Assembly: GCA_944390275.1 (NCBI GenBank)
Contig: CALXPL010000007.1
Location: forward strand, 29,595-93,594
From: an uncultured Alphaproteobacteria bacterium
GTDB lineage: Bacteria > Pseudomonadota > Alphaproteobacteria > RF32 > CAG-239
DNA: 64,000 nucleotides
Direction of reading: 5' to 3'
A program made the translations under genes and the position numbers. Below are positions 4,413 to 54,047 of the stretch, piece after piece. Under the pieces are notes generated by a model. The model ran no database searches. It was not told where the DNA came from and saw only the letters and a list, made by a program, of their open reading frames with translations. Position 1 is the stretch's first letter, and each line of letters begins with the position of its first letter.

Positions 4413-4423
4413 AAGGAATAGCC

Positions 4424-22498: not shown

Positions 22499-22499
22499 A

Positions 22500-23798: not shown

Positions 23799-23800
23799 AA

Positions 23801-24772: not shown

Positions 24773-24774
24773 GA

Positions 24775-25890: not shown

Positions 25891-25913
25891 AGTTACAAAA
25901 AAGAAAAGAATAG

Positions 25914-25942
25914 AACAGCCCCAAAGGGCTGTTTATTTTTTT
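25914..25942 (+). terminator. Intrinsic terminator after glf
   Basis: AACAGCCC-caaa-GGGCTGTT followed by a T-rich run. Confidence 0.75.
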
Positions 25943-26151
25943 AAACATATCACACATAAAAGTAAGGGTTGTCAAAAATAAAAACTAGAGATTGTGTATA
26001 AGTAAAAATAAAAAAAATAAGGAAATCAATAGATTGAGAGGTTAAAGACAAAAGATAGTAAAACAAAAATAAATTAGCTTGCCTAAACCAAAATTTCATT
26101 TATGATGTGTAAAAAATAAAACTAGGTTTAAAATATACATTAGGAAAATAA

Positions 26152-27108
26152 ATGAAAAAAATAATGGTTACGGGGTGTGCCGGTTTTATAGGATCAAGCC
26201 TGACGGATAAATTATTATCAGAAGGAAAAGAAGTTATAGGAATAGATAACTTTAATGATTACTATGATGTAAAAATAAAAGAAGCTAATATTTTTCAAGC
26301 ACAACAAAATCCACATTTTAAATTATATAGAGTAGATATAGAAAACAAAGAAGACTTAGAAAAAGTATTTAAGAACGAAGAGATAGAAAGCATTGTTCAT
26401 CTTGCGGCAAGAGCCGGAGTAAGACCCTCAATAGAACATCCTTTAGAATATATAAAAACCAACATATTGGGTACCGGAAATATTTTAGAATTGATGAAAC
26501 AATATGGCATCAAAAAGTTAGTATTTGCCTCATCAAGTTCTGTTTATGGAAATTGTCAGGAAGAAAAGTTTCGCGAAGATATAAAGGTATCCAAGCCGAT
26601 ATCACCTTACGCGGCCACAAAATTATCTTGCGAAGGATTGTGTTATACATACAGTCATTTATATCAAATGCAAGTAATTTGCTTAAGATTTTTTACGGTA
26701 TATGGCCCGCGTCAAAGACCGGATTTAGCGATTAACAAATTTTCACGATTAATCGAGGCCGGAGAGAAAATACCGATGTATGGTGATGGCAGTAGTATGA
26801 GAGATTATACATACATAGACGATATTTTACAAGGAATAGAGGGCGCCATCAATTATAATCAGACAAACTATGAAATCATCAACATAGGAGGAGGCTCTCC
26901 AATAAGTTTAAGAACAATGATAGAGACATTGGAAGAAGTAATAGGGAAGCCTGCTCAGATAGAAGAATTGCCAATGCAAGCCGGAGATGTCAACAAGACG
27001 GTTTCGGATATAAGTAAAGCCCGATTACTTTTAGGATATAAGCCGAGTACGACATTTAAAAGCGGCATAGAACAATATAGGAAATGGAGAAAGAGTCATG
27101 TCAACTAA
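26152..27108 (+). CDS. UDP-glucuronate 4-epimerase-like SDR
   Basis: TGCAGFIG, HLAARAGVRPS, ASSSSVYG, PYAATK, RFFTVYGPRQRPD. Confidence 0.88.
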   Translation: MKKIMVTGCAGFIGSSLTDKLLSEGKEVIGIDNFNDYYDVKIKEANIFQAQQNPHFKLYRVDIENKEDLEKVFKNEEIESIVHLAARAGVRPSIEHPLEYIKTNILGTGNILELMKQYGIKKLVFASSSSVYGNCQEEKFREDIKVSKPISPYAATKLSCEGLCYTYSHLYQMQVICLRFFTVYGPRQRPDLAINKFSRLIEAGEKIPMYGDGSSMRDYTYIDDILQGIEGAINYNQTNYEIINIGGGSPISLRTMIETLEEVIGKPAQIEELPMQAGDVNKTVSDISKARLLLGYKPSTTFKSGIEQYRKWRKSHVN

Positions 27109-29059: not shown

Positions 29060-29118
29060 AAGATATAAATAGAATATGTAATTTTCAAATAGGCAATCAG
29101 AGAGTTAGAGACATATTA

Positions 29119-30210
29119 ATGAAGGACAAAAATATTAAAATAAATTATATTACGAAAGGAACAATAAATACAGGTTCAACAAGGTTACGAGTAATTAAGG
29201 TATCAGATATTTTAAAACATCGTAGCTTAAAGATTTTAATAAATGGCGATATTAAAAATTCTCACATTGTAATACTACAAAAAAGTTATCCTGTAAGTTT
29301 TTTATTTCAAAAATTTATAGAGTGTCGATTAGCAAATAAATATATAGTATTTGATATAGATGATTTTTTTCCGGAATTTTTACCTTTTGTAAAGTACTCA
29401 GATTGTGTGATTGTTTCAACAAATACTCTAAAGGATGTTTTAGCCCATTTAAATAGTAATATATTTGTTGTTGAAAATCCTATCGATATATTAAAAGAAA
29501 GAGATGTAAAAACTCAATTTTCAGAAGATATTAAAGTTTGTTGGTTCGGATATCATGTGAACAGCTATATTTTGAATAAGAAAAAGATTAATGATGTTAC
29601 AATTATATCTGATAAAGGCGATATTCTATGGAACGAAGATACAATAGATGAAAATATACAAAAGTTTGATTTATGTGTTATTCCTCAAGAAAAAAATATA
29701 CATACTTTATGCAAAACGCATTGTCGGATGTTAAAATGTTTGTATTTAGGAGTTCCTGTTTTGGTATCAGACATGCCTGAATATATTGAATTAGCGGAAA
29801 TTGTTCACTATCCAAAAGAATTTATCTTAAAAGATACTGATGATTGGAACGAAACAATAAAGAAAATAAAAAATAATCAGTTAAAATTATCATTTGATTT
29901 TTTGCAATGTCGAAAAATTTTATTAGAAAAATTTAATGCAGAAGTAATAGCTGAAAAATACTTTAATACTGTATATAATAATTATATAAAAAATCATACA
30001 AGTGCAAGTAAAAATACGTTAACAACGAAATTGTTAAGAGATTTTCAGTTAATAAATAATACAAAAAGACAAGCAAAAAAATACAAAAACACATATAGAT
30101 TAAAGTACATTTTTTCTTTTGGCAAAAAACGAGAAATATACAAACAACTATACTGTTTTTTTAAACAGCAGTTAAAACAGTCAAGAAATAGAGCCAAAGC
30201 GATACAATAA
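29119..30210 (+). CDS. Putative glycosyltransferase (GT-B/GT4-like)
   Basis: GSTRLR, VFDIDD, VCWFG, KCLYLGVPVLVS patterns; located in the glycan cluster. Confidence 0.65.
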   Translation: MKDKNIKINYITKGTINTGSTRLRVIKVSDILKHRSLKILINGDIKNSHIVILQKSYPVSFLFQKFIECRLANKYIVFDIDDFFPEFLPFVKYSDCVIVSTNTLKDVLAHLNSNIFVVENPIDILKERDVKTQFSEDIKVCWFGYHVNSYILNKKKINDVTIISDKGDILWNEDTIDENIQKFDLCVIPQEKNIHTLCKTHCRMLKCLYLGVPVLVSDMPEYIELAEIVHYPKEFILKDTDDWNETIKKIKNNQLKLSFDFLQCRKILLEKFNAEVIAEKYFNTVYNNYIKNHTSASKNTLTTKLLRDFQLINNTKRQAKKYKNTYRLKYIFSFGKKREIYKQLYCFFKQQLKQSRNRAKAIQ

Positions 30211-39880: not shown

Positions 39881-39954
39881 TTGCAAATTTTGTCGAATAT
39901 GGTAAAGTAAAACGAAATTTTTATATTATTAATCAAAATAAATTATTATGAAAA
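39881..39954 (+). repeat. Promoter/leader direct repeat, copy 1
   Basis: TTGCAAATTTTGTCGAATATGGTAA...ATTATTATGAAAA; 65/74 identical to 40547-40620 by manual alignment. Confidence 0.92.
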
Positions 39955-40493
39955 CAATTACGCATGAAAAAGACGCTTACAAAAAATTTAAAACAGTAGC
40001 AAATTTGATTAATGGGCAAGTTTATGCCAAGAGTATGAAATGCAAAAGTTATTGCGGAGATTTTCTTGTCGGAAAAAACTACAATTTATGGGTTGCGGAA
40101 AGTTTGGATATTGATACAAAGCAGACCATGCTCTGTGTAATGATAATAGGAGACAAAATCAATGTTGTCTATGAACTTCCGGAATATATTTTTGAAGACG
40201 TAAGCCGAGCAGAAGATGTGAAGGGTTTTACCGATGAAGAGGGTAAGAAGTATATCAGGATCGAAAGCAAGTATGATAAAGATATAATTTTCAAAGATGA
40301 AGATTATATCAGATATGAACTGGCATGGGTTATAACGCATTGTTTGTATTTCAAAAAAGGAGAAGTCAACATTCGTTTTGAAGAAGGAACAGCCTATTTA
40401 AGCGGAAAAGTTATACAAGGCAATGAAGCTGAGTTATTCCGGTTGGCATGTATGGAAGAGCTAGGATGGACAATTAACTTTGCCATAGAGTAA
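39948..40493 (+). CDS. Hypothetical protein (ORFan cassette 3)
   Basis: 181-aa ORF with own promoter and terminator. Confidence 0.8.
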   Translation: MKTITHEKDAYKKFKTVANLINGQVYAKSMKCKSYCGDFLVGKNYNLWVAESLDIDTKQTMLCVMIIGDKINVVYELPEYIFEDVSRAEDVKGFTDEEGKKYIRIESKYDKDIIFKDEDYIRYELAWVITHCLYFKKGEVNIRFEEGTAYLSGKVIQGNEAELFRLACMEELGWTINFAIE

Positions 40494-40505
40494 TAAAAGC
40501 GTCAC

Positions 40506-40543
40506 AAAAGCAAAGATTCAACAAGAAGAATCTTTGCTTTTTT
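40506..40543 (+). terminator. Terminator between cassettes 3 and 4
   Basis: AAAAGCAAAGATTC/GAATCTTTGCTTTT stem followed by T's. Confidence 0.88.
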
Positions 40544-40546
40544 ATA

Positions 40547-40620
40547 TTGCAAATTTTGTCGAATATGGTAATGTGAAGCGAAATTACATTATTATTAATT
40601 AAAATAGATTATTATGAAAA
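40547..40620 (+). repeat. Promoter/leader direct repeat, copy 2
   Basis: First 25 bp identical to 39881-39905; same 67-nt distance from -35 to ATG. Confidence 0.92.
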
Positions 40621-41456
40621 GAGTAAATTTTTCAGAAAAAGGAGTAAGCAAAGAGTATAAAAACTCTAAGTTTATCGAATTAATTGGCAAGCCGACTTTT
40701 CGTCGTCTTATCTGTTGCGAGAGTTGGGGGGCAATTAATGGTGTCGGAGAAGACATTTTTGTTAAAGGGCAAAGCTACGACATCTGGATATGCAATGTCT
40801 ATAAAAAGAAGGAAGGTACCTTTGCTCATTATGTAGCTGTTCCCAAAATTATTGAGGAAAAGGGACATACCGAAAAATATCGTTATATTCTGCCGCAAAC
40901 GATATTTGGAAAGATTGATGATCGGGAAGAAGCAATTACAACACAGATAGAAGTAAACAAGCCGAAATTAGTTGTCAAGGATGAGCATATAGAGGAGTTG
41001 GAAACGGAAATTTGCAAGGAAAAATTTAAGTTAATTCCAGATTTCAATAATAGTTTTTTGCTCATTCCATCGTGGTATTTAAACAAAGAAGAGGTAGAAC
41101 AATACATCAAAGCAAAAGATGTTGAAGTTTTTTCTTCATCCACGGACAAGAAAACAAAATCAGCGGCTTATTGGTTAAAGTTATATCCACATCTTCCGCA
41201 GAAATATATGTTGATACCAAGAATATTCGGAACATCAACAAAAAATATGTTTATCGCATGGGAGATAAGGAGAAAGATGAACAAAAAAACGACATTAGCA
41301 ACTTACTTCAATATCTATAACGGATGTGAGGATTGCAATTGGCAAGATTTGGATATTCAATATCCGCTAGGCAACAACCAAAAGCAAGCTCAAGTAAAAA
41401 GGTTATATGTCCGGTATAGCAAGAAAAAAATTAATGTAAGTTTCAAAAGAATCTGA
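40614..41456 (+). CDS. Hypothetical protein (ORFan cassette 4)
   Basis: 280-aa basic ORF with own promoter and terminator. Confidence 0.8.
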   Translation: MKRVNFSEKGVSKEYKNSKFIELIGKPTFRRLICCESWGAINGVGEDIFVKGQSYDIWICNVYKKKEGTFAHYVAVPKIIEEKGHTEKYRYILPQTIFGKIDDREEAITTQIEVNKPKLVVKDEHIEELETEICKEKFKLIPDFNNSFLLIPSWYLNKEEVEQYIKAKDVEVFSSSTDKKTKSAAYWLKLYPHLPQKYMLIPRIFGTSTKNMFIAWEIRRKMNKKTTLATYFNIYNGCEDCNWQDLDIQYPLGNNQKQAQVKRLYVRYSKKKINVSFKRI

Positions 41457-42131: not shown

Positions 42132-42473
42132 ATGCCCTTTGTAACCATAGACACAAACGTTAAAGTAAACGTAACCGATACGATGTTGGAAGAAGTAACG
42201 GATATCATAGTAAAAACGCTGCATAAGCCGGAAAATGCCGTTACGGTAAAAATCAATACGGGAGTAGTCATGGCTTTTGGCGGCAGCAGTAAGCCCCCTG
42301 GAGCATTGATTGAAGTAAAATCAATAGGCTACGGTAACAAGAAAGAAGAATTAGCTCAACAATTTTTGGATTTTGCTCAAACGTATTTTAATGCGGAAGG
42401 GCAATTTGTCGGGATTCACTTTGTTGATATGAAAGCGAATGATGTGTCTCATAATGGAGTGTTAATGGGATAA
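42132..42473 (+). CDS. MIF/phenylpyruvate tautomerase family protein
   Basis: Starts M-P-F (catalytic Pro1), TNV, KPE, MAFGGS..P, EVKSIG; 113 aa. Confidence 0.88.
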   Translation: MPFVTIDTNVKVNVTDTMLEEVTDIIVKTLHKPENAVTVKINTGVVMAFGGSSKPPGALIEVKSIGYGNKKEELAQQFLDFAQTYFNAEGQFVGIHFVDMKANDVSHNGVLMG

Positions 42474-42545: not shown

Positions 42546-43385
42546 ATGGAAAAAATTAATTTTTCAGCCAAAGAATGGCAGTGTGCAGAAAAAGTGTTAA
42601 ATGAATTTTCTTACCATACGGACTGCCTCCGCAATGGTCAGTTAACCGTGGAACCAAAATATATTGTTTGCATGGATGACGACGCAAGCTCGGCATTTTA
42701 TGCGGCAAAAGTCTATTTTGCCTGTAAAAAACAATATAAACATGAACCGTTGGTTCTATGTGTCGGCGGAAAAGGGATGCTGTCAAAATATCTGAATTAT
42801 GACGGCTGTTCCGAAGGAGAAAAATTGGCGCATGTTTGTCGCCGATTAGGTGTAAAAAGAGTAATGGTTTTGGACAAAGGCAACAATACGGGAGCCAATG
42901 TTAAAGAAATCATTGAAAACACGGAAAAGGGAGCCCCGATAATTTTTTGCCCGACCAAACGTTTAAGTTTACGTTTGGAACGCACGGTAAAATTCAGTAC
43001 GACACAATTTCCCGGAACAGAACCGTTGAACGCATGGTTCTATGTCGCACCGGAAACATTGGAAGATATGTTGCAAGCGCACAACGGCAAGGGACTGGCC
43101 GGAGGGTTAGCCTTGTTGTCGGAGTTAGCTTCGATTTATGAAAGGTTGCGGAGATACAAAAACATCTTTAATGCACCTTTGGAAAAGAAGCCCTCACAAG
43201 AGGGAGTAGAAGCCGCGGCATATCTGGAAAAACACTATCCGATAAAAATAAAACGCTTACCTTTATCTGCGCCGATACAATTTGTTAAAATGTATTGGGC
43301 GGTGATGACAGGGAAGAAAGCCGTTCAAGAAGACTTGGAAAAACATGTCGAAGAATGGCAAACCCGCGTTGAAGAAGGATTGTAA
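42546..43385 (+). CDS. YdcF/DUF218-like protein (cassette 5)
   Basis: LCVGGKG...SEGEKLAHVCRRLGV...DKGNNTGANVKE resembles the DUF218 core. Confidence 0.6.
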   Translation: MEKINFSAKEWQCAEKVLNEFSYHTDCLRNGQLTVEPKYIVCMDDDASSAFYAAKVYFACKKQYKHEPLVLCVGGKGMLSKYLNYDGCSEGEKLAHVCRRLGVKRVMVLDKGNNTGANVKEIIENTEKGAPIIFCPTKRLSLRLERTVKFSTTQFPGTEPLNAWFYVAPETLEDMLQAHNGKGLAGGLALLSELASIYERLRRYKNIFNAPLEKKPSQEGVEAAAYLEKHYPIKIKRLPLSAPIQFVKMYWAVMTGKKAVQEDLEKHVEEWQTRVEEGL

Positions 43386-43389
43386 AAAT

Positions 43390-43427
43390 AAAAAAAAGGT
43401 TGGATTATTATCCAACCTCTTTTTTTT
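43390..43427. terminator. Bidirectional terminator
   Basis: A-run, AGGTTGGAT/ATCCAACCT, T-run, between convergent genes. Confidence 0.85.
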
Positions 43428-43431
43428 GAGG

Positions 43432-44895
43432 TTAATTTGCAGAAACCAAACCATGGCTAAAGGCATAGATAGCCCAAAGAGCAATAATAACAAAAAGCCA
43501 AGCAAGTTTCTTTTCATCTTGAGAAAAGACAGGTTGGTCAGGAGCATTTTGTTTTCGTGCTTTAATAAAGACAGGAATGCCTAAAGCTAAAATAATGACC
43601 GCCAACATGGAATATTTAAGTCCGGCAGCATAGATTAGCCAAACAGCATAAGCCGAGCCGGCAATAGCTGTAAATAAAGCGATAGAACGTGAGGTTTCTG
43701 ATTTCTGAGGATATTCGCCGTCTGTGCAGAGTTTCCATAAATAAATGCAAGACATTAAATAAGCCGGTAAGACCATAACGCTGGTAATGTTAAGCATAAC
43801 TGACCAAGCGTTATTGGCAAAATAAACCAGGAACATACAAATTTGCATGGCGAAGCTGGTAATCCATAAGGAAGCGGAAGGCGAACCGACAGCATTTTCT
43901 TTCATGAATAATTTAGGAAAAGTACCGTTTTGAGCGGCAGCAAAAGGGATTTGAGCGGTTACAATAGTCCAAGCCAACCAACTACTTAAGACGGCAATAA
44001 GCAAGCCGATATTCATCAACCAAGCACCTTTTTTACCGATAATAAGTTCTAAGATACCAACGGTTGAAGGGTTAGCAATATTTTTGAGTTCGTCTTGATG
44101 CATATATCCGTAAGGAAGCATAGAGAGAAGGGCATAGATGATAAGACAAGAGATAAAGCCGAGAAAAGTAGCTTTACCGATATCTTTATAATCTTTAGCT
44201 TTGTCAGAGAGAACGACAGCGCCTTCAATACCGATAAAGGCCCAGAGTGTAACCATCATCGTACTTTTGATTTGAGTTCCGAGACTGCCTAAACTAGCCA
44301 AAGTTTTCGTAGATTCCCCCCAAAAGTCAAAATCAAATTTATCGGAATTAAAGACCACAGCCATAATTAAAATAAAAAGAAAGAGGGGAACAATTTTCAA
44401 GATAGTACCGATAAGATTAACGATACTAGCTTGCTGAACACCTTTAAGGATCATAAAATTAAATCCCCAAATAATAACGGAACCGCCGATAATTGAAGCA
44501 AAATTATTCCCACCGGCAAAATAGGGAGGAAAGAAATAATTAAGAGCATCCATTGTGATAACGGCATAACTGACATTACCGAAGACTTGGCAGAGCCAAT
44601 AAGACCAACCGATAGTAAAACCGGCATAAGCCCCAAAACCGGCACGGCTGTATGAGTAAATACCGGTAGTTAAATCAGGTTTCGTTAAAGAGAGAACCGA
44701 AAAAGTTTTGACAATAAAATAAATACCGATACCGGTAATGACCCAAGAGAGGAGAACGGCACCGGCAGAAGCACCGGCAGCCATATTTTGAGGCAAGCTG
44801 TAAATACCGCCGCCTAACATAGAGCTGACGACGATACAAGCCAAAGCGAAAACGCCTAGGCCTTTTTTGTTGGATTGAGAATTATTTTTTTGCAT
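43432..44895 (-). CDS. aaxC: Arginine/agmatine antiporter (APC family, chlamydial AaxC-like)
   Basis: SSMLGGGIYSLPQNMA, FTIGWSYWLCQVFGNVSYAVITMDALNYFFPPYFAGGN, TLWAFIGIEGAVV. Confidence 0.85.
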   Translation of the reverse strand: MQKNNSQSNKKGLGVFALACIVVSSMLGGGIYSLPQNMAAGASAGAVLLSWVITGIGIYFIVKTFSVLSLTKPDLTTGIYSYSRAGFGAYAGFTIGWSYWLCQVFGNVSYAVITMDALNYFFPPYFAGGNNFASIIGGSVIIWGFNFMILKGVQQASIVNLIGTILKIVPLFLFILIMAVVFNSDKFDFDFWGESTKTLASLGSLGTQIKSTMMVTLWAFIGIEGAVVLSDKAKDYKDIGKATFLGFISCLIIYALLSMLPYGYMHQDELKNIANPSTVGILELIIGKKGAWLMNIGLLIAVLSSWLAWTIVTAQIPFAAAQNGTFPKLFMKENAVGSPSASLWITSFAMQICMFLVYFANNAWSVMLNITSVMVLPAYLMSCIYLWKLCTDGEYPQKSETSRSIALFTAIAGSAYAVWLIYAAGLKYSMLAVIILALGIPVFIKARKQNAPDQPVFSQDEKKLAWLFVIIALWAIYAFSHGLVSAN

Positions 44896-44945
44896 GATAA
44901 ATTCCTGAAAAGAAAGCCCCGAAAGGAGATTCGGGGCTAGAGAGA

Positions 44946-45533
44946 TTACAAAGAAGCCGGAGCGGCATGTTCAAAATTTAAGAAACCCATAGCGGTTAAG
45001 CAATAACCGAATTGTTCAGTAATATTGATGTAATTATGCCACATTTGGAATTCGGAATGTTGTTCAACACCGCGTAGTTCAAGTTCATGACGCAAAGATT
45101 TGCGGAGCCACATTTCAGAATGACCTTTAGCAATTTCATCATCAATATGAGTATCAAAGTATTCAACATATTCAGCCGCCCAACCGCCGATAAGTTCGCC
45201 TTTTTTATTTTTTCCCCAGCAAACGCCGATACCAGTAGCAATAGCTTTGTGGTCATCACGACTTGCTCCGTTAGCCGCCATAATGACTTCCAGTACGGCA
45301 CCATGTTTGAATTGTTTTACGATTTTGTCATTGAGAGGAACGATTTTACCGAAAAGTTCTTTAGGCAAAACAGAAGTATAAGGAACAATGTTAAAGTTTT
45401 CGATACGGGCTTGCAACAAGGCAGAATCATAACAAAAAGTTTCAAAAGGTTGAGGAGGGATACCTTCATTAGCTTGTCCGGCACCGCCGGTAATAAAAGC
45501 AAAAGTAGGATAACGAACACCTTGAGTAGTCAT
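44946..45533 (-). CDS. aaxB: Pyruvoyl-dependent arginine decarboxylase (chlamydial AaxB-type)
   Basis: [34 protein letters not shown] with self-cleavage site T53-S54; [11 protein letters not shown]; 195 aa. Confidence 0.93.
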
Positions 45534-45706
45534 AATATTTCTCCCTAAAATGTTAAAAAATAAAAATTACTACTTTGATTTAATCATTTAAGAATTGATT
45601 TCAGGCGGAAGAAATATCCACAGCAAAATATTTTTTTTGAAAAGAGTAGAAATTTTGAAGAATTAGAATACATTATAAGAAAAGAATTAAAGTAAAGGAA
45701 AAAGAA

Positions 45707-46879
45707 ATGCAGCCGAATAAAAAAATTATGACCGGATTATTAAGTATTCTGTTAATAACAGGATGCCTTGAGAATGACAAAAACGCGACCAAAGAAACTG
45801 AAGGACTAAAAGTTCAGGCATTAAGGGTTGAAGCGAAAGATATTCCTTTAGATTTAGAATATTCAGCAAGAGCGCAAGGTTATAAACAAACACAAGTAAG
45901 AGCGCAAGTCGGCGGCATATTGTTAAAAAGACATTATAAAGAAGGCTCGCGAGTAAATGCCGGAGATGTATTGTTTGAAATAGATCCGGCACCGTATAAA
46001 GTAGCGCTATCCCAAGCCAAAGCTCATTTAGCGGAAGCCGAAGCCGAATACCAATCAGCACAGAGCGATTGGAAGAGAATTTCTACATTATACAAACAAA
46101 AAGTCGTTAGTGAAAAATCCAGAGATGATGCACAATCGGCATTAAATATGACAAAAGCAGCCGTTCAAGTAGCTCAAGCACAAGTAGAAAAAGCCGAGTT
46201 GGATTTAGGATATACAACGGTAACGGCCCCAATAAGCGGCATAACCAGTTTGGAAGATCAATCAGAGGGAAGTTTAATTTCGGTAAATGGCGATGCGGGA
46301 TTGTTAACGAGCATAACGCAGGTTGACCCGATTTATGTAATATTTAATGCTTCGGAAAGCGAGATTCTTTCATTAACAACGATGAATGATAAAGGCATGA
46401 TAGCTAATCCGGCTAAAGGCAAAGCGATTACGGCAAAAGTGAAATTAAGTAATGACAGTTATTATCCGTTAAACGGAAAAATTAATTTTATTAATCCGAC
46501 AATAGATGAAAATACGGGAACAATAAAACTTCGTGCGGTATTTCCAAATCCAGAGGGAAGATTACGTCCCGGACAATTTTTGCGTTTAGTAATGGAGGGC
46601 TTGATAAGAAAAGATGCGATAGTCGTACCTGAAGATGCGGTTATGCAAGGAGCAAAAGGACCTTTTGTTTATAAAATAAGTGATAAAGGAACAGTAGAAA
46701 TAGCGAATATAAAAACCGGATTTACAACACAAGAAGAAGGTTGGGTTGTTGATGAAGGATTAAAAGACGGAGATTTAGTAATTATTTCGGATTTAATGAA
46801 AATAAGACAAGGCATTCCGGTAAAAGCGGAAATCGTCAATGAACCGAAAAAAGAAGAAATTTTCGATGCCGACGTATAA
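45707..46879 (+). CDS. RND efflux periplasmic adaptor (AcrA-like MFP)
   Basis: Lipobox LLITGC, VRAQVGGIL, LFEIDPAPY, TVTAPISG, FPNPEGRLRPG. Confidence 0.93.
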   Translation: MQPNKKIMTGLLSILLITGCLENDKNATKETEGLKVQALRVEAKDIPLDLEYSARAQGYKQTQVRAQVGGILLKRHYKEGSRVNAGDVLFEIDPAPYKVALSQAKAHLAEAEAEYQSAQSDWKRISTLYKQKVVSEKSRDDAQSALNMTKAAVQVAQAQVEKAELDLGYTTVTAPISGITSLEDQSEGSLISVNGDAGLLTSITQVDPIYVIFNASESEILSLTTMNDKGMIANPAKGKAITAKVKLSNDSYYPLNGKINFINPTIDENTGTIKLRAVFPNPEGRLRPGQFLRLVMEGLIRKDAIVVPEDAVMQGAKGPFVYKISDKGTVEIANIKTGFTTQEEGWVVDEGLKDGDLVIISDLMKIRQGIPVKAEIVNEPKKEEIFDADV

Positions 46880-46911: not shown

Positions 46912-49900
46912 ATGTTTTCAAAATTTTTTATTGAAAGACCCATATTCGCCACGGTAGTATCCTTGATTATTGTATTGTCAGGGCTTGTTTCCATGCAAGC
47001 CTTGCCTGTTGAACAATATCCGGATATCGTTCCGACAGAAATACAAATATCAGCAACCTATCCCGGAGCTACGGCAGAAGTTTTGGCAGATACGGTGGCC
47101 GCACCGATAGAACAAGAAGTAAACGGTGTGAAAAACATGATATATATGTACTCCAATTCAACATCAAGCGGTTATTTGACGATAGGTGTCGTCTTTGATA
47201 TTGGTACGGATCCGGATCAAGCAACGATAGATGTAAATAACAAAGTTCAAATGGCAACGCCGCAGCTACCGTCAGAAGTAACCAAAAACGGGGTAACAGT
47301 CGAACAAAAGTCGAATTCAATATTGCAAGTAGTCACGATGAAGTCGGATTCGGAAAGATATGATACGGTTTATGTATCAAATTATGCATTGTTGAATGTT
47401 TTGGATGAAATTAAAAGAATAAAGGGCGTTGGTAGTGCTTCGCTTTTTGCTTCGCAAGACTATTCGATGAGAATATGGCTCAGTCCGGATAAATTGGCTG
47501 ATTACGATTTGACGCCGCAAGATGTGATAAGTGCAATACAAGAACAAAATTCACAATTTGCTGCAGGGCAGTTTGGTCAAGAACCGATGGAAGAAGCGCA
47601 AACCTATACCTATTCGGTCAACACAAAAGGACGTTTAGTCAGTGCTGAAGAGTTTGGTAAGATAATTTTGAAAACAGATAATCAAGGGGGACTATTACTG
47701 TTAAGAGATGTTGCGCGCATTGAGTTGGGCGCGCAAGATTATAGTGTACGTTCAAAATTTAACGGCAAAGATGCGGTCGCATTTGCAATATATTTGCAAC
47801 CGGGAGCTAATGCTTTGGAAACGGCGGAGTTGGTAAAAGCCAAGATGGAAGAATTATCAAAAAGTTTTCCGGAAGGCATAAGTTATGAAATTCCTTACGA
47901 TACGACATTGTTCGTAACGGTTTCGATAAAAGAAGTAATTCATACATTTTTTGAAGCCGTTGTGTTGGTTGTATTGGTTGTTTATTTGTTCTTACAAAGT
48001 TTTCGAGCAACAATGATACCGATATTAGCGGTTCCGGTTTCGATTATCGGAGCATTTGCGGGAATGTATGTTTTAGGTTTTTCCATAAATTTATTAACCT
48101 TATTTGGATTGATATTAGCCATAGGAATTGTGGTTGATGATGCCATAATTGTTTTGGAAAATGTCGAAAGATTGATGAGTGAGGAAGGTCTATCTCCGAA
48201 AGAAGCGGCGATTAAGGCAATGCAGGAAGTATCAGGTCCGGTTATTGCCGTAGCCCTGGTATTGTCTTCGGTATTTTTGCCGATTGCTTTTTTAGGAGGT
48301 ATGACCGGAGTAATGTACAAACAATTTTCGGTAACGATAGCCGTATCCGTTGTTTTATCGGCATTAGTTGCTTTAAGTTTGACTCCATCATTATGTGCCT
48401 TAATTTTGAAAAAAGAGCATATTGTAAAAAAGAAGCATAATTTTTTCAGCTGGTTTGATACTTTTTTTGATAAGGTAACGGAAATTTATGCATCATTAGT
48501 CTTGGTTTTATTAAAATACCGCAAGACGGCATTACTCTGCTTTGCCGGAGTAATATTAGGAATTATATATTTATTAAAGATAATTCCGACCAGTTTGGTT
48601 CCGAATGAAGATATGGGAAGTTTGTTAATGTCCTATGATATGCCGCCGGCATCATCCTTATCAAGGACAACAACATTTACGGATAAAATAGCCGGAGAGG
48701 TCAAAGATAATCCCAATGTCGAAAATATCATTACGATAAATGGCTATAATATATTATCTTCAAGTCAAAATACCTATTCGGCAGTAAGTTTCATTACCTT
48801 ACAAGATTGGGATAAGAGAAAAGAAAAAGACCAATCAGCCACATCCTTGTCGCAAATTTTTACAGGGATAGGGATGAGCGGAGCAAAAGGAATAGGTTAT
48901 TCATTCAGTATGCCGCCCATAATGGGTTTGAGCATGACCGGAGGAATTGAGGGCTACATTCAAAACCGCGTAGGAAAAAGTCCGCAAGAATTAATGGATA
49001 AGACAAATGAATTTATAATACGAGCACAACAAGAACCGGCTTTGAAAAATGTCAAAACAACGTTTTCGGTAAATACACCGCAATACAGAATAGACTTAGA
49101 CCGCGTAAAAGCCAGTACGTTAGATATTCCGATAAACGCAGTTTATGCGGTAATGCAAGCGACATTTGGAAGTTTGTATGTCAATGATTTTACCTATTTA
49201 GGTAGAAATTTCCGAGTTAGTTTGCAGTCAGAATCAAAATTCAGACGCTCACCGGATGATTTAAGATATGTCTATGTAAAATCAAATAACGGAAGTTTAG
49301 TTCCTTTGTCAACATTGATAAAGGTTGAAAGGATTAACGGACCGGAATTAATAAATCGCTTTAACATTTTCCCTGCGGCAAAAGTATTGGCAGATCCTGC
49401 TCCGGGATATAGTTCGGGACAAGCCATAGACGCTATGGAAAAAGTAGCAGAAGAAGTATTGGGCGAAGATTATTCATTATCATGGACAGGTTCGGCTTAT
49501 CAAGAAAAACTGGCCGGAGGAGCATCAACACAAGCCTTTGTGTTTGGATTGATAATGATATTCTTGATTTTATCGGCACAATATGAAAAATGGTCATTAC
49601 CGTTTGTCGTTATATTGGCGGTTCCTTTTGGTGTTTTTGGAGCATTATTGGCGACATGGTTAAGAGGATTAGATAATGATTTGTACTTTCAAATCGGATT
49701 AGTAACCTTGATAGGACTTTCAGCTAAGAATGCCATTTTGATAGTTGAGTTTGCTGTCATGAAAGTCAAAGAAGGATTGACTTACGCGGATGCAGCGGTA
49801 GAAGCGGCTAAGTTAAGATTTCGTCCGATAGTTATGACATCCTTAGCTTTCACGTTTGGCGTATTGCCCTTGGCTATAAGTACGGGAGCAGGAGCAAATT

Positions 49901-50088
49901 GTCGTCATTCAATAGGAACGGGAATGATAGGCGGAATGTTGTTGTCAACATTCGTTTCGACAATATTTGTGCCAATGATATTTGCTCTGGTAGGAGAAAT
50001 TTTTGATGAAGAAAATATCATCAGAAGAAAGATACGGAAAAGAGCAATTAAACGTGGACGTCCGTTATTAAAAGACGTACGGCGATAA
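46912..50088 (+). CDS. RND multidrug efflux permease (AcrB/HAE1 family)
   Basis: FFIERPIFA, LAIGIVVDDAIIVLEN, LIGLSAKNAILIVEFA, RFRPIVMTSLAF. Confidence 0.96.
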   Translation: MFSKFFIERPIFATVVSLIIVLSGLVSMQALPVEQYPDIVPTEIQISATYPGATAEVLADTVAAPIEQEVNGVKNMIYMYSNSTSSGYLTIGVVFDIGTDPDQATIDVNNKVQMATPQLPSEVTKNGVTVEQKSNSILQVVTMKSDSERYDTVYVSNYALLNVLDEIKRIKGVGSASLFASQDYSMRIWLSPDKLADYDLTPQDVISAIQEQNSQFAAGQFGQEPMEEAQTYTYSVNTKGRLVSAEEFGKIILKTDNQGGLLLLRDVARIELGAQDYSVRSKFNGKDAVAFAIYLQPGANALETAELVKAKMEELSKSFPEGISYEIPYDTTLFVTVSIKEVIHTFFEAVVLVVLVVYLFLQSFRATMIPILAVPVSIIGAFAGMYVLGFSINLLTLFGLILAIGIVVDDAIIVLENVERLMSEEGLSPKEAAIKAMQEVSGPVIAVALVLSSVFLPIAFLGGMTGVMYKQFSVTIAVSVVLSALVALSLTPSLCALILKKEHIVKKKHNFFSWFDTFFDKVTEIYASLVLVLLKYRKTALLCFAGVILGIIYLLKIIPTSLVPNEDMGSLLMSYDMPPASSLSRTTTFTDKIAGEVKDNPNVENIITINGYNILSSSQNTYSAVSFITLQDWDKRKEKDQSATSLSQIFTGIGMSGAKGIGYSFSMPPIMGLSMTGGIEGYIQNRVGKSPQELMDKTNEFIIRAQQEPALKNVKTTFSVNTPQYRIDLDRVKASTLDIPINAVYAVMQATFGSLYVNDFTYLGRNFRVSLQSESKFRRSPDDLRYVYVKSNNGSLVPLSTLIKVERINGPELINRFNIFPAAKVLADPAPGYSSGQAIDAMEKVAEEVLGEDYSLSWTGSAYQEKLAGGASTQAFVFGLIMIFLILSAQYEKWSLPFVVILAVPFGVFGALLATWLRGLDNDLYFQIGLVTLIGLSAKNAILIVEFAVMKVKEGLTYADAAVEAAKLRFRPIVMTSLAFTFGVLPLAISTGAGANCRHSIGTGMIGGMLLSTFVSTIFVPMIFALVGEIFDEENIIRRKIRKRAIKRGRPLLKDVRR

Positions 50089-50962: not shown

Positions 50963-51949
50963 TTATTTTTTTCTTTCGGGTTTGATTCCGGTTAGGATAA
51001 AATCAACTCTTTCTTCGGGAGAAAGGCGTTTAGGATAATATTTATCAACTTTTTTCAAAACTTTACCCAAGCCGATTCCGTTAGCAATCTGTACAGCCAA
51101 ACCGGGGCGAGCATTAAGTTCAAGCATCATCGGTCCTTTGTCGGCATCAAGGACAATATCGGCACCGAGATATCCTAAACCGGTCATTTCATAAGCCTTT
51201 GCTCCGATTAAGAGATGTTCGCGCCAAAAAGGAACTTCTATTTTAGATAAATCGGCACCGGTATCCGGATGATGAGTAATAGGCATATTGCGCATAACGG
51301 CTTTAAGGGTACGTCCGGTTTTAACATCAAGCCCGACCCCGACAGCTCCTTGGTGAAGATTGGCACGTCCGCCTGAAGCAGCTGTAGCCAAACGAGTCAT
51401 AGCCATAACGGGATAGCCTTTATAGACAATAACGCGTACGTCAGGAATACCTTGATAGCTATAATTATCAAAGATATGGCTGAAATTGACCATTTCTTCA
51501 ATCACGGCAGTATCATATTGACCACCTAAACTATACAATCCGCTGAGGGTGTTAGAAATATGTTGATAAATTTCTTTATAAGAAAGAATCCGTCCGGAAG
51601 GAGTTGTAAAGGTATTTAAGTCATGAGATTTTATCACAAGGACACCTTTTCCGCCGCTTCCGTGAGCGGGTTTAATAACGAAGGAATTCCAGTCTTTAAC
51701 CAGCTCTAAAAGTTTGTTAACTTCGTGTTGGTATTCGATAATTCCGATGAGGCGAGGGGTATTAATCCCATATTGCAGAGCCAAGGCTTTAGTCTGTACT
51801 TTATCATCGACCAAGGGATAAAGGTTACGTTTGTTAAGTTTGGCAATAAATTTAAAATTACGGCTATTCATACCGAGAATACCGGCATTACGGAGTTCGG
51901 CGGGAGAAGCAAAATATTTTGACAGCCATTGAAACATATTCAAAAACAT
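50963..51949 (-). CDS. Alpha-L-glutamate ligase-like ATP-grasp protein
   Basis: GILGMNSRN, LVDDKVQTK, VIKPAHGSGGKG, GIPDVRVIV, ANLHQGA, LELNARPGLAVQIAN. Confidence 0.92.
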   Translation of the reverse strand: MFLNMFQWLSKYFASPAELRNAGILGMNSRNFKFIAKLNKRNLYPLVDDKVQTKALALQYGINTPRLIGIIEYQHEVNKLLELVKDWNSFVIKPAHGSGGKGVLVIKSHDLNTFTTPSGRILSYKEIYQHISNTLSGLYSLGGQYDTAVIEEMVNFSHIFDNYSYQGIPDVRVIVYKGYPVMAMTRLATAASGGRANLHQGAVGVGLDVKTGRTLKAVMRNMPITHHPDTGADLSKIEVPFWREHLLIGAKAYEMTGLGYLGADIVLDADKGPMMLELNARPGLAVQIANGIGLGKVLKKVDKYYPKRLSPEERVDFILTGIKPERKK

Positions 51950-51951
51950 CC

Positions 51952-53484
51952 TTATTTAACAAGAGGGCGAAAACGTTTTAATTCCGTTAAGCGGTAGCCG
52001 GTATAAGTTCCCAAGAGCATAACAAGGAACAAAATAACCAGATTCAACTCGTTAAAAGCAAACATAATATAACGAATGGTTTCGTTGCAAATAATAAAAT
52101 AAGTAAGGATAGCGGCAATCATACTGAATAAAATTTGTCTTCCGGCATTAAAAGGACCTTCTTCTTCCCAAGTAATGGAAGCGCGCTCAATAACCCAAGC
52201 CATAATAATGATAGGGAAGGAAGCAGCGGAAGCGGTAATATTTGTATTGAAGTGGTAACCATAAACAGTCATAGCCTGAATGATGAGAATGACACAAATA
52301 ACCACGGCGGATATTCTCGGAACGAGGAGCAGGTTCAGTTTTGAGAAGAGCGTACGAATCAGCAAACCGATAGAAATAATAATAGCAAAACAAATGAGTC
52401 CGGGGATAAGACCTGTTTTCACCAAAGCCATAGCCAAGAGCATAGGAGTAAAAGTACCCATCGTTTGTAAACCGATAACATTACGGATAAGAGCGATAAC
52501 CAGAATAGCCAGAGGGAAAATCATGAGCCATTTTATTGTATTTTGTTCATTAACGGGTAAGTTATAGATAGAATTTTCAAAATTTTTGCTGTCATCGGCA
52601 ATTTTTGCACGTTTTCCGGCTAAGTCGAAAGAAGTTGTAACCGATTTGAGAACGGAGAATTTAACGGAAGAATCAAAGCCGCCTTCAAGGTCGAGCAAAG
52701 AATTTCCGCCGCGTTGAAAGATAATAAAGTCAGCCGGCAAACCGATTTGACCGGTAGTAAGATTATACAATTTCCAACGGTTGCCGATATAGGCTTCTAA
52801 CATGAGGTCGGGAGCAAAAGATTTTTTATCTTCAGCCAATTTAATACCGCGAGCCAAACGAGAAGGAATCCCTTTATAAGAGAGCAAACGTTCGATTGTC
52901 TCGGCAACGATTTTCGGTGTTTTTTTCATGGGTAAAAAAGCAACGACGGTTGGTTCGGGTGGAACTTGATTAAACAAGCGAATAAGTTGTTGCGGTAAGT
53001 CGCCTTGAAATTTTTTAGCAAGTTCGAGAAGTTCGTTAGCGATTGCTTCGGTTTGTTCGCTGTAAACAGGTTTTTCGGGAGTTGGAGGAAGAGGGGCTTC
53101 AACTTTTCCTTTAGCCGATTCGTTATCAAAAAGGAGAATACGATAATAGACGTTTTGCAAACCATCGCGAGGTTGAGAAGTTAAGATGAGTCTTCCGTTT
53201 TCTTTAGAAGATTTATACCCAGCAGCCACAATATCTTCATCAAGAATTTTATAATCATCGCTGCTGACGGGAGTAGCCAAAGAGATTTTGACGGGAGAAC
53301 CATCCGCTTCATATTGAATATTAGCTTCAATAGTCCAGACATTAGTTTTGTCTTTTGGAGCGAAAGAAAACCCCCAGTAGCGGACTTTATAATAAGCGGA
53401 ATAAGCGGCATAAGCAACAGAGAACAAGAGCATCAAAGAAATGATAAAACGTACGGTACATAATCTTTTAAGTCTGTAAAGCAT
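51952..53484 (-). CDS. Inactive transglutaminase domain fused to 7TM (UUP1-like) membrane protein
   Basis: Periplasmic domain followed by RNVIGLQTMGTFTPMLLA, LLLVPRISAV, FPIIIMAWVIER, LGTYTGYRLTELKRF. Confidence 0.88.
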   Translation of the reverse strand: MLYRLKRLCTVRFIISLMLLFSVAYAAYSAYYKVRYWGFSFAPKDKTNVWTIEANIQYEADGSPVKISLATPVSSDDYKILDEDIVAAGYKSSKENGRLILTSQPRDGLQNVYYRILLFDNESAKGKVEAPLPPTPEKPVYSEQTEAIANELLELAKKFQGDLPQQLIRLFNQVPPEPTVVAFLPMKKTPKIVAETIERLLSYKGIPSRLARGIKLAEDKKSFAPDLMLEAYIGNRWKLYNLTTGQIGLPADFIIFQRGGNSLLDLEGGFDSSVKFSVLKSVTTSFDLAGKRAKIADDSKNFENSIYNLPVNEQNTIKWLMIFPLAILVIALIRNVIGLQTMGTFTPMLLAMALVKTGLIPGLICFAIIISIGLLIRTLFSKLNLLLVPRISAVVICVILIIQAMTVYGYHFNTNITASAASFPIIIMAWVIERASITWEEEGPFNAGRQILFSMIAAILTYFIICNETIRYIMFAFNELNLVILFLVMLLGTYTGYRLTELKRFRPLVK

Positions 53485-53504
53485 AAGAGAGACCTTATAT
53501 AAAA

Positions 53505-54047
53505 TTAGTTAAGAGTGTTGGAAAGCGAAGTATCGACGATAGCGCGTCCGGTTAAGATATTTCGACCGATAAGGGCTTGGTATTCAAATTTTTCGCGGTC
53601 AGCGAGGTTAAAACGGACACCGGTAATAATTTCTTTTCCGAATTTGACTTCCATATCGACGGCATAACGCTTTTCATGTTCATTAATGCGTTTAATATCA
53701 ACGACTTTTTGGATTTTCTTTTCAAAATGGTGCATTTCACCGTTTTCGCGATTAACAAGGTCAAAAGCGACCCATTTTTCTCCGTCGCGCTCGAATTTTT
53801 TAATATTTTTGGCATCAATGGACGACATTTCGGCACCGGTATCAATGCGAGCTTGAAAAGGTGTCTTCATTGGAAGAAAATAGATAGGTTCGGTTTCACC
53901 GATAATGCCTAAAGAGTGTCGAGGAGTTTTTTTAACTTCGACAGCGGGGACGATTTCGGGGCGCACGGTCTGCTGAGTTGAGCAGGCAGAGAGAAAGGCA
54001 AAAGAAAACATTGCAAAAAACATATAAATATATTTCATTTTTTTCAA
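53505..54047 (-). CDS. RimK-associated 'ATP-dependent Zn protease'/retropepsin-like lipoprotein
   Basis: Lipobox FLSAC, ARIDTGA, FNLADR, ALIGRNIL. Confidence 0.88.
   Translation of the reverse strand: MKKMKYIYMFFAMFSFAFLSACSTQQTVRPEIVPAVEVKKTPRHSLGIIGETEPIYFLPMKTPFQARIDTGAEMSSIDAKNIKKFERDGEKWVAFDLVNRENGEMHHFEKKIQKVVDIKRINEHEKRYAVDMEVKFGKEIITGVRFNLADREKFEYQALIGRNILTGRAIVDTSLSNTLN

What the first reader, a model, noticed from the sequence alone, without database searches (positions are those of the whole stretch)
43432..45533. Chlamydia-type arginine decarboxylase/antiporter (aaxB-aaxC) in an alphaproteobacterium
Seen in sequence: the 195-aa protein carries [33 protein letters not shown] and [11 protein letters not shown], which match my recollection of chlamydial AaxB, with an intact Thr-Ser self-cleavage site. 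It is followed by an AaxC-like antiporter in the same order as chlamydial aaxABC, but with no aaxA porin. Established: AaxBC exchanges arginine for agmatine and consumes protons. Inference: horizontal sharing with Chlamydiae; may provide acid resistance, host arginine depletion and agmatine release.
Basis: partly seen in the sequence, partly recalled or inferred. Interest (0 to 1): 0.65.

Follow-up and report, generated by a model that had tools for sequence, protein, structure and literature searches.

The report
Arginine decarboxylase–antiporter pair, gut alphaproteobacterium
The window carries an intact two-gene module (a self-cleaving arginine decarboxylase plus an arginine/agmatine exchanger) of the same family as chlamydial aaxBC. 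It is not a rare transfer: it is a conserved, long-resident feature of hundreds of uncultured animal-gut bacteria.

Summary
On the minus strand, a 195-aa pyruvoyl-dependent arginine decarboxylase (45533..44946) is followed after 50 nt by a 487-aa basic-amino-acid/polyamine antiporter (44895..43432). They are 70% and 59% identical to AaxB and AaxC of a real Chlamydia crocodili aaxABC locus. The Thr53-Ser54 cleavage site and the catalytic Asp36, Asn48 and Glu121 are intact. The predicted fold matches the M. jannaschii enzyme.

At least 237 species-level genomes carry AaxB-type genes. Most are uncultured gut or rumen Alphaproteobacteria. Others are Elusimicrobia, Opitutales, Desulfovibrionaceae (including Bilophila wadsworthia) and Chlamydiaceae. 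aaxB sits directly upstream of aaxC in all 154 loci with room to tell.

The window's copy falls in an alphaproteobacteria-only clade of 133 species (100% bootstrap). It has host-like base composition, conserved chromosomal neighbours and strong purifying selection. It is therefore an old resident, not a recent exchange with Chlamydiae.

There is no aaxA porin in the window. Relatives often carry an AaxA-like OprB porin, either adjacent or elsewhere in the genome.

The most likely function is proton-consuming arginine-to-agmatine conversion coupled to exchange. This is a new member of a known kind, of modest interest.

The parts
45534..45706 (-). 5' intergenic region shared with the divergently transcribed RND efflux operon. 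It must hold the aaxB promoter, which is not assigned.
   Evidence: Sequence read. The consensus scan found no convincing minus-strand sigma-70 site here. A metatranscriptome contig (run X26) spans 45464-45723.
45541..45546 (-). Shine-Dalgarno sequence AGGGAG, 7 nt before the aaxB ATG
   Evidence: Read directly from the sequence.
44946..45533 (-). aaxB: pyruvoyl-dependent arginine decarboxylase proenzyme, 195 aa
   Evidence: PF01862 at 87.2 bits against a cut-off of 22.7. 70% identity to C. crocodili AaxB. AlphaFold model pLDDT 96.4; best structural matches are M. jannaschii PvlArgDC 2qqd/1n2m, E 1e-13, target-normalised TM about 0.8. dN/dS 0.015-0.07.
45372..45377 (-). Codons for Thr53-Ser54, the predicted self-cleavage site. 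Ser54 would become the pyruvoyl group.
   Evidence: Invariant in 159 of 159 homologues. Aligns with Ser52-Ser53 of M. jannaschii PvlArgDC. Chlamydial AaxB cleaves at Ser53 (PMC2720952).
44915..44938 (-). Intercistronic GC-rich stem-loop (AGCCCCGAA-loop-TTCGGGGCT) followed by a T-rich run. It looks like a terminator and sits between aaxB and aaxC.
   Evidence: Terminator scan. A comparable hairpin occurs in 71 of 114 related loci with a spacer of 40 nt or more, against 14 of 570 shuffled spacers. With a T-rich tail the counts are 51 of 114 against 2 of 570.
44903..44906 (-). Shine-Dalgarno-like AGGA, 7 nt before the aaxC ATG
   Evidence: Read directly from the sequence.
43432..44895 (-). aaxC: inner-membrane arginine/agmatine antiporter of the basic amino acid/polyamine antiporter family, 487 aa
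   Evidence: TIGR00905 at 537 bits against a cut-off of 409. PF13520 E 3e-56. 59% identity to C. crocodili AaxC. Best solved relative is E. coli AdiC, E 3e-32, with AdiC Tyr93, Asn101, Trp202, Glu208 and Trp293 conserved as Tyr99, Asn107, Trp218, Glu224 and Trp309. dN/dS 0.05-0.16.
43390..43425 (.). Bidirectional intrinsic terminator shared with the convergent gene 42546-43385
   Evidence: A 16-pair and a 9-pair stem flanked by A and T runs on both strands.

Best explanation
A two-gene arginine:agmatine exchange module.

Inferred from orthology:
- AaxB is made as a proenzyme that cuts itself between Thr53 and Ser54. This turns Ser54 into a covalently bound pyruvoyl cofactor.
- The mature enzyme decarboxylates cytoplasmic L-arginine to agmatine and CO2, consuming one proton.
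- AaxC imports arginine (+1) in exchange for agmatine (+2).
- Each cycle therefore removes a cytoplasmic proton and exports one net positive charge. That raises internal pH and builds membrane potential.
- In this genome-reduced gut bacterium the module most likely gives tolerance to acid and short-chain-acid stress, and possibly some energy conservation. It would release agmatine into the gut lumen.

Inferred from the sequence: a terminator-like hairpin between the two genes probably holds the transporter at a lower level than the enzyme.

Shown here: gene anatomy, family membership, conserved catalytic residues, fold, universal aaxB-aaxC linkage, purifying selection and long residence in the alphaproteobacterial lineage.
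For: - Family and fold.
- Identity to a genuine chlamydial aaxABC locus: 70% for AaxB and 59% for AaxC.
- AaxB-type proteins, including the chlamydial ones, form a clade with 100% bootstrap against the nearest other PvlArgDC relatives, which are at most 55% identical.
- Asp36, Asn48, Thr53-Ser54 and Glu121 are invariant. Gly116 matches chlamydial Gly115, which is needed for self-cleavage (PMC2720952).
- aaxB lies directly upstream of aaxC in 154 of 154 loci with room to tell.
- AdiC gating and substrate-binding residues are conserved in AaxC.
- dN/dS is far below 1 for both genes.
- RNA-run contigs cover both genes.
- No agmatine-consuming genes lie within about 6 kb in about 200 loci, and none is in the window.
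- The biochemistry of C. pneumoniae AaxB and AaxC is summarised in PMC2720952.
Against: - No activity was measured. PMC2720952 shows that one missense change can stop AaxB self-cleavage and that a few substitutions can inactivate AaxC, so sequence alone cannot prove function.
- AaxC scores below the curated cut-offs of every substrate-specific NCBIfam model: ArcD 488 of 591, histidine/histamine 445 of 725, AdiC 150 of 574. Its substrate pair therefore rests on orthology with chlamydial AaxC.
- The physiological role (acid tolerance, energy conservation or agmatine supply) is not resolved.
- The RNA evidence is low-depth contigs without strand information.
Confidence: 0.8

Rival explanations
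1. Polyamine biosynthesis. AaxB mainly supplies agmatine for the cell's own putrescine and spermidine synthesis, and AaxC serves as an arginine importer or a putrescine exporter.
For: In the cultured alphaproteobacterium Lichenicola cladoniae, a plasmid carries antiporter, PvlArgDC, aguB and aguA in a row next to an IS5 transposase. From general knowledge, pyruvoyl arginine decarboxylases serve polyamine synthesis in archaea.
Against: No aguA or aguB homologue lies within about 6 kb of aaxBC in about 200 gut loci, nor anywhere in the window. The Lichenicola antiporter is only 45% identical to AaxC and lies upstream of the decarboxylase, so it is a different variant. The invariant aaxB-aaxC linkage fits an exchange cycle.
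Confidence: 0.12
2. Recent horizontal exchange with Chlamydiae. This genome acquired chlamydial aaxBC, or donated it directly.
For: 70% and 59% identity and the same gene order as in Chlamydia. The family is patchily spread over several phyla.
Against: The window sits in an alphaproteobacteria-only clade of 133 taxa with 100% bootstrap, and Chlamydia branch elsewhere. GC and GC3 are within 1 sd of the window's genes. Flanking RND genes are conserved in about 45 species. dS is saturated even against the closest species. No mobile-element genes lie nearby. The chlamydial aaxA-aaxB-aaxC order is shared with Elusimicrobia (37 of 37), not with this lineage.
Confidence: 0.03
3. A different substrate pair, for example arginine/ornithine (ArcD-like) or histidine/histamine exchange, with a decarboxylase of altered specificity.
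For: The best substrate-specific NCBIfam scores for AaxC are the ArcD and histidine/histamine models, both below cut-off. Gut Bacteroidota combine aaxB, an antiporter and hdcA in one cluster (PMC8465708).
Against: The AaxB-type clade is tight (at least 67% identity) and includes the biochemically characterised chlamydial arginine decarboxylases (PMC2720952). No hdcA or arc genes are in the window.
Confidence: 0.05

Closest known systems
Chlamydial AaxB/AaxC of the aaxABC arginine:agmatine exchange system (C. pneumoniae CPn1032/CPn1031; here C. crocodili locus L081)
   Same: Same orthologous family: 70% (AaxB) and 59% (AaxC) identity. Protein lengths are the same or nearly so: 195 aa for AaxB, and 487 against 486 aa for AaxC. 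Same Thr-Ser cleavage site, and same aaxB-then-aaxC order on one strand.
   Different: No aaxA porin upstream. A 50-nt spacer with a terminator-like hairpin replaces the 8-9 nt chlamydial spacer. The host is a free-living gut-lumen bacterium rather than an intracellular pathogen. The window's genes belong to a separate alphaproteobacterial subclade.
E. coli AdiA/AdiC arginine-dependent acid resistance system
   Same: Same overall logic: arginine decarboxylation plus arginine/agmatine antiport. AaxC and AdiC are homologous APC-superfamily transporters with conserved Tyr93, Asn101, Trp202, Glu208 and Trp293 equivalents.
   Different: AdiA is a large PLP-dependent enzyme unrelated to the pyruvoyl enzyme. 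AaxC scores 150 bits against the AdiC equivalog cut-off of 574, so it is not an AdiC orthologue. There is no AdiY-type regulator nearby.
Archaeal pyruvoyl-dependent arginine decarboxylase PdaD (M. jannaschii, PDB 1n2m/2qqd)
   Same: Same fold (target-normalised TM about 0.8). Same catalytic residues: Asp35, Asn47, Ser53 and Glu109 correspond to Asp36, Asn48, Ser54 and Glu121.
   Different: Only about 20% identity. The window protein is far below the PdaD equivalog cut-offs: 33 of 107 and 32 of 207 bits. PdaD is a polyamine-biosynthesis enzyme not linked to an antiporter. AaxB-type proteins are about 30 residues longer.
Lichenicola cladoniae plasmid cluster (NZ_CP053710: antiporter, PvlArgDC, aguB, aguA, IS5)
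   Same: An AaxB-type decarboxylase (67% identity) in an alphaproteobacterium, next to a basic amino acid/polyamine antiporter.
   Different: The gene order is reversed and the antiporter is only 45% identical. The cluster is coupled to the agmatine deiminase pathway, is plasmid-borne and is flanked by IS elements.
aaxA-aaxB-aaxC operons of gut Elusimicrobia
   Same: Same family: AaxB about 77% and AaxC about 65% identical to the window's. Same animal-gut habitat.
   Different: All 37 Elusimicrobia loci have an aaxA porin gene on the same strand directly upstream, as in Chlamydia. The window has none.

Membership tests
Pyruvoyl-dependent arginine decarboxylase (Pfam PF01862) | Sequence match above the curated Pfam threshold over the whole domain | tested here: met
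   87.2 bits against a cut-off of 22.7; residues 9-182 cover profile positions 2-158 of 161.
Pyruvoyl-dependent arginine decarboxylase (Pfam PF01862) | Serine at the self-cleavage site that becomes the pyruvoyl group, plus the Asn and Glu needed for cleavage and catalysis and the Asp of the substrate pocket | tested here: met
   Thr53-Ser54, Asn48, Glu121 and Asp36 align with M. jannaschii Ser52-Ser53, Asn47, Glu109 and Asp35. All are invariant in 159 homologues.
Pyruvoyl-dependent arginine decarboxylase (Pfam PF01862) | The fold of the solved enzyme | tested here: met
   AlphaFold model pLDDT 96.4, pTM 0.90. The top nine Foldseek hits are all M. jannaschii PvlArgDC, E about 1e-13, target-normalised TM 0.78-0.83. 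The next hit is pyruvoyl histidine decarboxylase at E 3e-3.
Pyruvoyl-dependent arginine decarboxylase (Pfam PF01862) | Autocatalytic cleavage and arginine decarboxylase activity | not testable with these tools
   Needs expression, an immunoblot for the small N-terminal and larger C-terminal fragments, and an enzyme assay.
Archaeal-type PdaD equivalogs (TIGR00286, NF009064) | Score above the NCBIfam equivalog cut-off | tested here: not met
   33 bits against 106.95, and 31.6 bits against 207. It is not filed as PdaD; it belongs to a separate AaxB-type subfamily.
AaxB-type subfamily (chlamydial AaxB orthologues) | Monophyly with chlamydial AaxB to the exclusion of other PvlArgDC relatives, and high identity | tested here: met
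   159 AaxB-type sequences, including 4 Chlamydia, separate from 7 outgroups with 100% bootstrap. Identity within the clade is at least 67%, against at most 55% to the nearest other clusters. Trp118 in GGWAAEY is present in 159 of 159 sequences; outgroups have Tyr or Phe.
AaxB-type subfamily (chlamydial AaxB orthologues) | Gly at chlamydial position 115. Arg at this position blocks self-cleavage in C. trachomatis D. | tested here: met
   Window Gly116 aligns with chlamydial Gly115 (PMC2720952).
Basic amino acid/polyamine antiporter family (TIGR00905, TC 2.A.3.2) | Score above the subfamily cut-off over the full length | tested here: met
   537.1 bits against 409.05; residues 8-484 cover profile positions 4-471 of 473.
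AaxC (chlamydial arginine/agmatine antiporter) | Close orthology with characterised AaxC, and genetic linkage to aaxB | tested here: met
   59% identity over 459 aa to C. crocodili AaxC. aaxC lies directly downstream of aaxB in 154 of 154 loci.
AaxC (chlamydial arginine/agmatine antiporter) | Arginine/agmatine exchange activity | not testable with these tools
   Needs uptake or counterflow assays.
ArcD arginine/ornithine antiporter (TIGR03810) and AdiC (NF007929) | Score above the equivalog cut-off | tested here: not met
   ArcD 488.2 against 591; AdiC 149.9 against 574; histidine/histamine 445.2 against 725.
aaxABC three-gene operon | An OprB-family porin gene, aaxA, directly upstream of aaxB | tested here: not met
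   The AaxA profile has no hit in the window (best E 0.19). The gene upstream of aaxB is a divergent RND membrane-fusion protein. The window's form is the two-gene aaxBC variant, as in 111 of the 140 related alphaproteobacterial loci that have at least 1.5 kb of sequence upstream of aaxB.

The most novel reading that the evidence does not exclude
aaxBC is a near-universal, vertically inherited core module of the uncultured, genome-reduced gut Alphaproteobacteria (the RF32-like order). There it would serve as an energy-conserving decarboxylation/antiport cycle and a major microbial source of luminal agmatine. Animal-gut bacteria would be the reservoir from which the Chlamydiaceae ancestor took aaxABC. 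The best candidate donors are Elusimicrobia, which share the exact aaxA-aaxB-aaxC order, or the aaxA-linked alphaproteobacterial subclade.
Probability: 0.3. Interest if true: 0.55.

Novelty: new member of a known kind. Interest (0 to 1): 0.3.

Why it matters
The genes themselves are ordinary. NCBI already labels them as a pyruvoyl-dependent arginine decarboxylase in related MAGs, and the system is characterised in Chlamydia. The useful point is ecological.

- An acid-resistance and agmatine-export module so far studied in an intracellular pathogen turns out to be a standard feature of hundreds of uncultured gut species across several phyla.
- This gives a candidate source for luminal agmatine, a metabolite that feeds cross-species putrescine production in the gut (PMC6021145).
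- It gives a handle on the physiology of the uncultured, genome-reduced RF32 lineage (PMC13155120).
- It gives a concrete donor pool for the horizontally acquired chlamydial aaxABC (PMC2720952).
- Bilophila wadsworthia ATCC 49260 carries the pair and could serve as a culturable test organism.

Tried and rejected
- phmmer of AaxB against PDB sequences found nothing relevant. A profile was needed.
- Rfam and tRNA scans of the window gave nothing, so there was no RNA marker for taxonomy.
- No phage carries an AaxB homologue. Only one plasmid does.
- The two primary biochemical papers (PMC2576674, PMC2168457) are not held. Their content is cited through the summary in PMC2720952.
- My first hairpin criterion (a T-run after the last stem of the minimum-free-energy fold) was flawed and undercounted. 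An explicit stem search with shuffled controls replaced it.
- The AaxB-only rooted tree does not resolve where Chlamydia branch; they fall at the base, possibly through long-branch attraction. The concatenated trees place them either with Elusimicrobia, Opitutales, Mailhella and five aaxA-linked alphaproteobacterial loci (15-taxon split, 100% bootstrap) or near the base when rooted on Lichenicola. I therefore do not name a donor.
- The chlamydial probe used was a sequence recalled from memory. It served only to fetch real loci, and no conclusion rests on it.
- No convincing sigma-70 promoter was found upstream of aaxB.
Full report
**What is in the sequence**

On the minus strand there is a 195-aa ORF (45533..44946), a 50-nt spacer, and a 487-aa ORF (44895..43432). 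These are exactly the coordinates given.
- The first ORF is preceded by AGGGAG and the second by AGGA.
- The spacer holds a 9-bp GC-rich stem-loop followed by a T-rich run (44938..44915).
- A bidirectional terminator follows the second gene (43425..43390).
- Upstream and divergent lies an RND efflux pair: a membrane-fusion protein (45707-46879) and a pump (46912-50088). Downstream and convergent lies a 279-aa protein with no family match.

**The decarboxylase**

- The 195-aa protein matches Pfam PF01862 (pyruvoyl-dependent arginine decarboxylase) at 87 bits against a cut-off of 22.7.
- It is far below the NCBIfam equivalogs for the archaeal enzyme (33 of 107 bits). It is therefore a diverged subfamily.
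- A profile of the subfamily and its relatives aligns to the solved M. jannaschii enzyme. Asp36, Asn48, Thr53-Ser54 and Glu121 correspond to Asp35, Asn47, Ser52-Ser53 and Glu109. All are invariant in 159 homologues.
- An AlphaFold model (pLDDT 96.4) finds only that enzyme as a strong structural match: E about 1e-13, target-normalised TM about 0.8.

**The transporter**

- The 487-aa protein passes the basic amino acid/polyamine antiporter subfamily model (537 bits against 409).
- It passes none of the substrate-specific equivalogs: ArcD 488 of 591, histidine/histamine 445 of 725, AdiC 150 of 574.
- Its best solved relative is E. coli AdiC (E 3e-32). AdiC Tyr93, Asn101, Trp202, Glu208 and Trp293 are conserved as Tyr99, Asn107, Trp218, Glu224 and Trp309.

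**Comparison with real chlamydial genes**

I used a recalled chlamydial sequence only as a probe, and fetched genuine loci from Chlamydia genomes.
- In C. crocodili (L081) the order is aaxA (449 aa, OprB-family porin), aaxB (195 aa), aaxC (486 aa).
- The window's proteins are 70% and 59% identical to AaxB and AaxC.
- Window Gly116 matches chlamydial Gly115, whose change to Arg blocks self-cleavage in C. trachomatis D (PMC2720952).
- The observation therefore holds.

**Distribution**

- The exact protein is on 18 metagenome contigs. The window's DNA is in chicken-gut metagenomes.
- Three scans of one-genome-per-species collections found 186, 237 and 153 species with relatives.
- Most are uncultured gut and rumen Alphaproteobacteria, with labels such as 'Proteobacteria bacterium CAG:495' and 'Azospirillum sp. 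51_20'. From memory these belong to the RF32 order, which PMC13155120 describes as genome-reduced and widespread in animal guts.
- Other carriers are about 40 Elusimicrobia, Opitutales/Verrucomicrobiota, Desulfovibrionaceae (including cultured Bilophila wadsworthia ATCC 49260), a Chlamydiaceae MAG and Chlamydia.
- In 1.84 billion cluster representatives, the nearest full-length proteins outside this group are only 51-55% identical.
- aaxB lies directly upstream of aaxC in 154 of 154 loci with room to tell.

**Phylogeny and residence**

- AaxB-type proteins, including the chlamydial ones, separate from outgroups with 100% bootstrap.
- In neighbour-joining trees of concatenated AaxB and AaxC, the window groups with two MAGs (L001 and L002, 95% AaxB identity). 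It lies inside an alphaproteobacteria-only clade of 133 taxa with 100% support. That clade includes one contig binned as Bacteroidaceae, probably misbinned.
- Chlamydia branch elsewhere. In one analysis they group with Elusimicrobia, Opitutales, Mailhella and five aaxA-linked alphaproteobacterial loci (15-taxon split, 100%). Rooted on a distant member, they fall near the base. I do not consider the donor resolved.
- GC and GC3 of both genes lie within one standard deviation of the window's genes.
- The RND neighbours recur in about 45 species, and gyrA lies within 6 kb in 14.
- dS is saturated even against the closest species, while dN/dS is 0.015-0.07 for aaxB and 0.05-0.16 for aaxC.
- No mobile-element genes are nearby.
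- The pair is therefore an old, selected resident of this lineage.

**The porin**

- A profile of 26 AaxA homologues finds nothing in the window.
- All 4 Chlamydia and all 37 Elusimicrobia loci have aaxA on the same strand directly upstream. Of the alphaproteobacterial loci, 29 have a divergent aaxA next to aaxB, and 111 have none adjacent, like the window.
- AaxA-like OprB porins are nevertheless common in these MAGs. Of the 80 best matches, 39 lie away from aaxBC, often in assemblies whose aaxBC lacks an adjacent porin.
- 'No aaxA' is therefore true of the window, not necessarily of the genome.

**Mechanism**

By orthology with the characterised C. pneumoniae system (PMC2720952):
- AaxB self-cleaves at Ser54 to make its pyruvoyl cofactor and converts arginine to agmatine, consuming a proton.
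- AaxC exchanges external arginine for internal agmatine.
- From established knowledge of decarboxylase/antiporter systems such as AdiA/AdiC, each cycle alkalinises the cytoplasm and exports one net positive charge.

The intercistronic hairpin is conserved in position but not in sequence. It occurs in 71 of 114 loci against 14 of 570 shuffles. This suggests partial termination or transcript stabilisation that favours the enzyme over the transporter; that reading is an inference.

Contigs from RNA runs, two of which are labelled metatranscriptomic (X26, X30), cover parts of both genes; one X26 contig also covers the leader. Depth is low. This is weak evidence of expression.

**Rivals**

- Polyamine synthesis is suggested by a Lichenicola plasmid cluster with aguB and aguA. 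No such genes lie near aaxBC in about 200 gut loci or in the window, and the Lichenicola antiporter is only 45% identical.
- A different substrate pair is unlikely, given the tightness of the clade.
- Recent exchange with Chlamydiae is contradicted by the tree, the base composition and the synteny.

**Novelty**

- The system is known, and related MAG genes are already annotated as pyruvoyl-dependent arginine decarboxylase.
- aaxB-type genes have been noted in gut Bacteroidota (PMC8465708), and short pyruvoyl arginine decarboxylases in gut bacteria (PMC12484125).
- I found no paper describing their near-ubiquity in gut Alphaproteobacteria, or the shared aaxABC order of Elusimicrobia and Chlamydia.
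- The window's locus is a new member of a known kind.

Noticed in passing
Loci L129, L259-L322 (Elusimicrobia) compared with L081-L084 (Chlamydia): All 37 gut Elusimicrobia loci carry aaxA-aaxB-aaxC on one strand, the same three-gene order as Chlamydia. Alphaproteobacteria have aaxA divergent or absent. This bears on where the chlamydial operon came from.
   Followed up: partly
window 44915-44938, and the aaxB-aaxC spacers of L001-L158: A terminator-like GC-rich hairpin between aaxB and aaxC is conserved in position but varies in sequence. It occurs in 71 of 114 loci against 14 of 570 shuffles. It is absent where the spacer is under 20 nt, as in Chlamydia.
   Followed up: partly
L287 (Bilophila wadsworthia ATCC 49260, NZ_JNJP01000001), aaxB at about 2820-3404 and aaxC at about 3495-4943: A cultured human gut pathobiont carries an intact aaxBC pair (AaxB 75% and AaxC 62% identical to the window's) without an adjacent aaxA. 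It could serve as an experimental model.
   Followed up: partly
L242 (Lichenicola cladoniae plasmid NZ_CP053710, 216001-226048): A plasmid-borne cluster reads: PLP Orn/Lys/Arg decarboxylase, outer-membrane beta-barrel, antiporter, AaxB-type decarboxylase, aguB, aguA, IS5 transposase. It is a mobile variant coupled to putrescine synthesis.
   Followed up: partly
Proteins P0134, P0135, P0142, P0146, P0151, P0167 and P0136-P0138: The nearest non-AaxB relatives (38-47% identity) carry signal-peptide or lipoprotein-like N-termini, or N-terminal extensions of 160-290 residues. This suggests secreted or membrane-anchored pyruvoyl decarboxylases of unknown role.
   Followed up: no
window 27098-30210: A low-GC island (GC 0.25-0.27, 2.7-3.4 sd below the window's genes) encodes a DUF4422 + GT8 glycosyltransferase and a 363-aa ORF with no family match. 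It sits inside a sugar-nucleotide and surface-polysaccharide gene block (21551-30210) and is probably a horizontally acquired, variable surface-glycan segment.
   Followed up: no
window 50963-54047 (minus strand): A three-gene cluster: a RimK-related alpha-L-glutamate ligase-like ATP-grasp protein (TIGR02291), a 7TM protein fused to an inactive transglutaminase, and a RimB-like putative zinc protease. It is a conserved module of unknown function.
   Followed up: no
window 39948-41456 and 42132-42473: Two adjacent ORFs (181 and 280 aa) have no family match. The first has no homologue in any of 158 related loci. Next to them lie a histidine phosphatase and an MIF/tautomerase-family protein.
   Followed up: no
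L250 (uncultured Chlamydiaceae MAG, CAUWIK010000001): A metagenomic Chlamydiaceae genome has aaxABC, but with AaxB only 78% and AaxC only 64% identical to C. crocodili. It is much more divergent than the cultured Chlamydia species are from each other.
   Followed up: no
L148, L262, L265, L279 (bins labelled Bacteroidaceae, Spirochaetes, Muribaculaceae, Limosilactobacillus): aaxBC loci on short contigs in bins with unlikely taxon labels cluster with alphaproteobacterial or Elusimicrobia copies. They are probably binning errors rather than real hosts.
   Followed up: no
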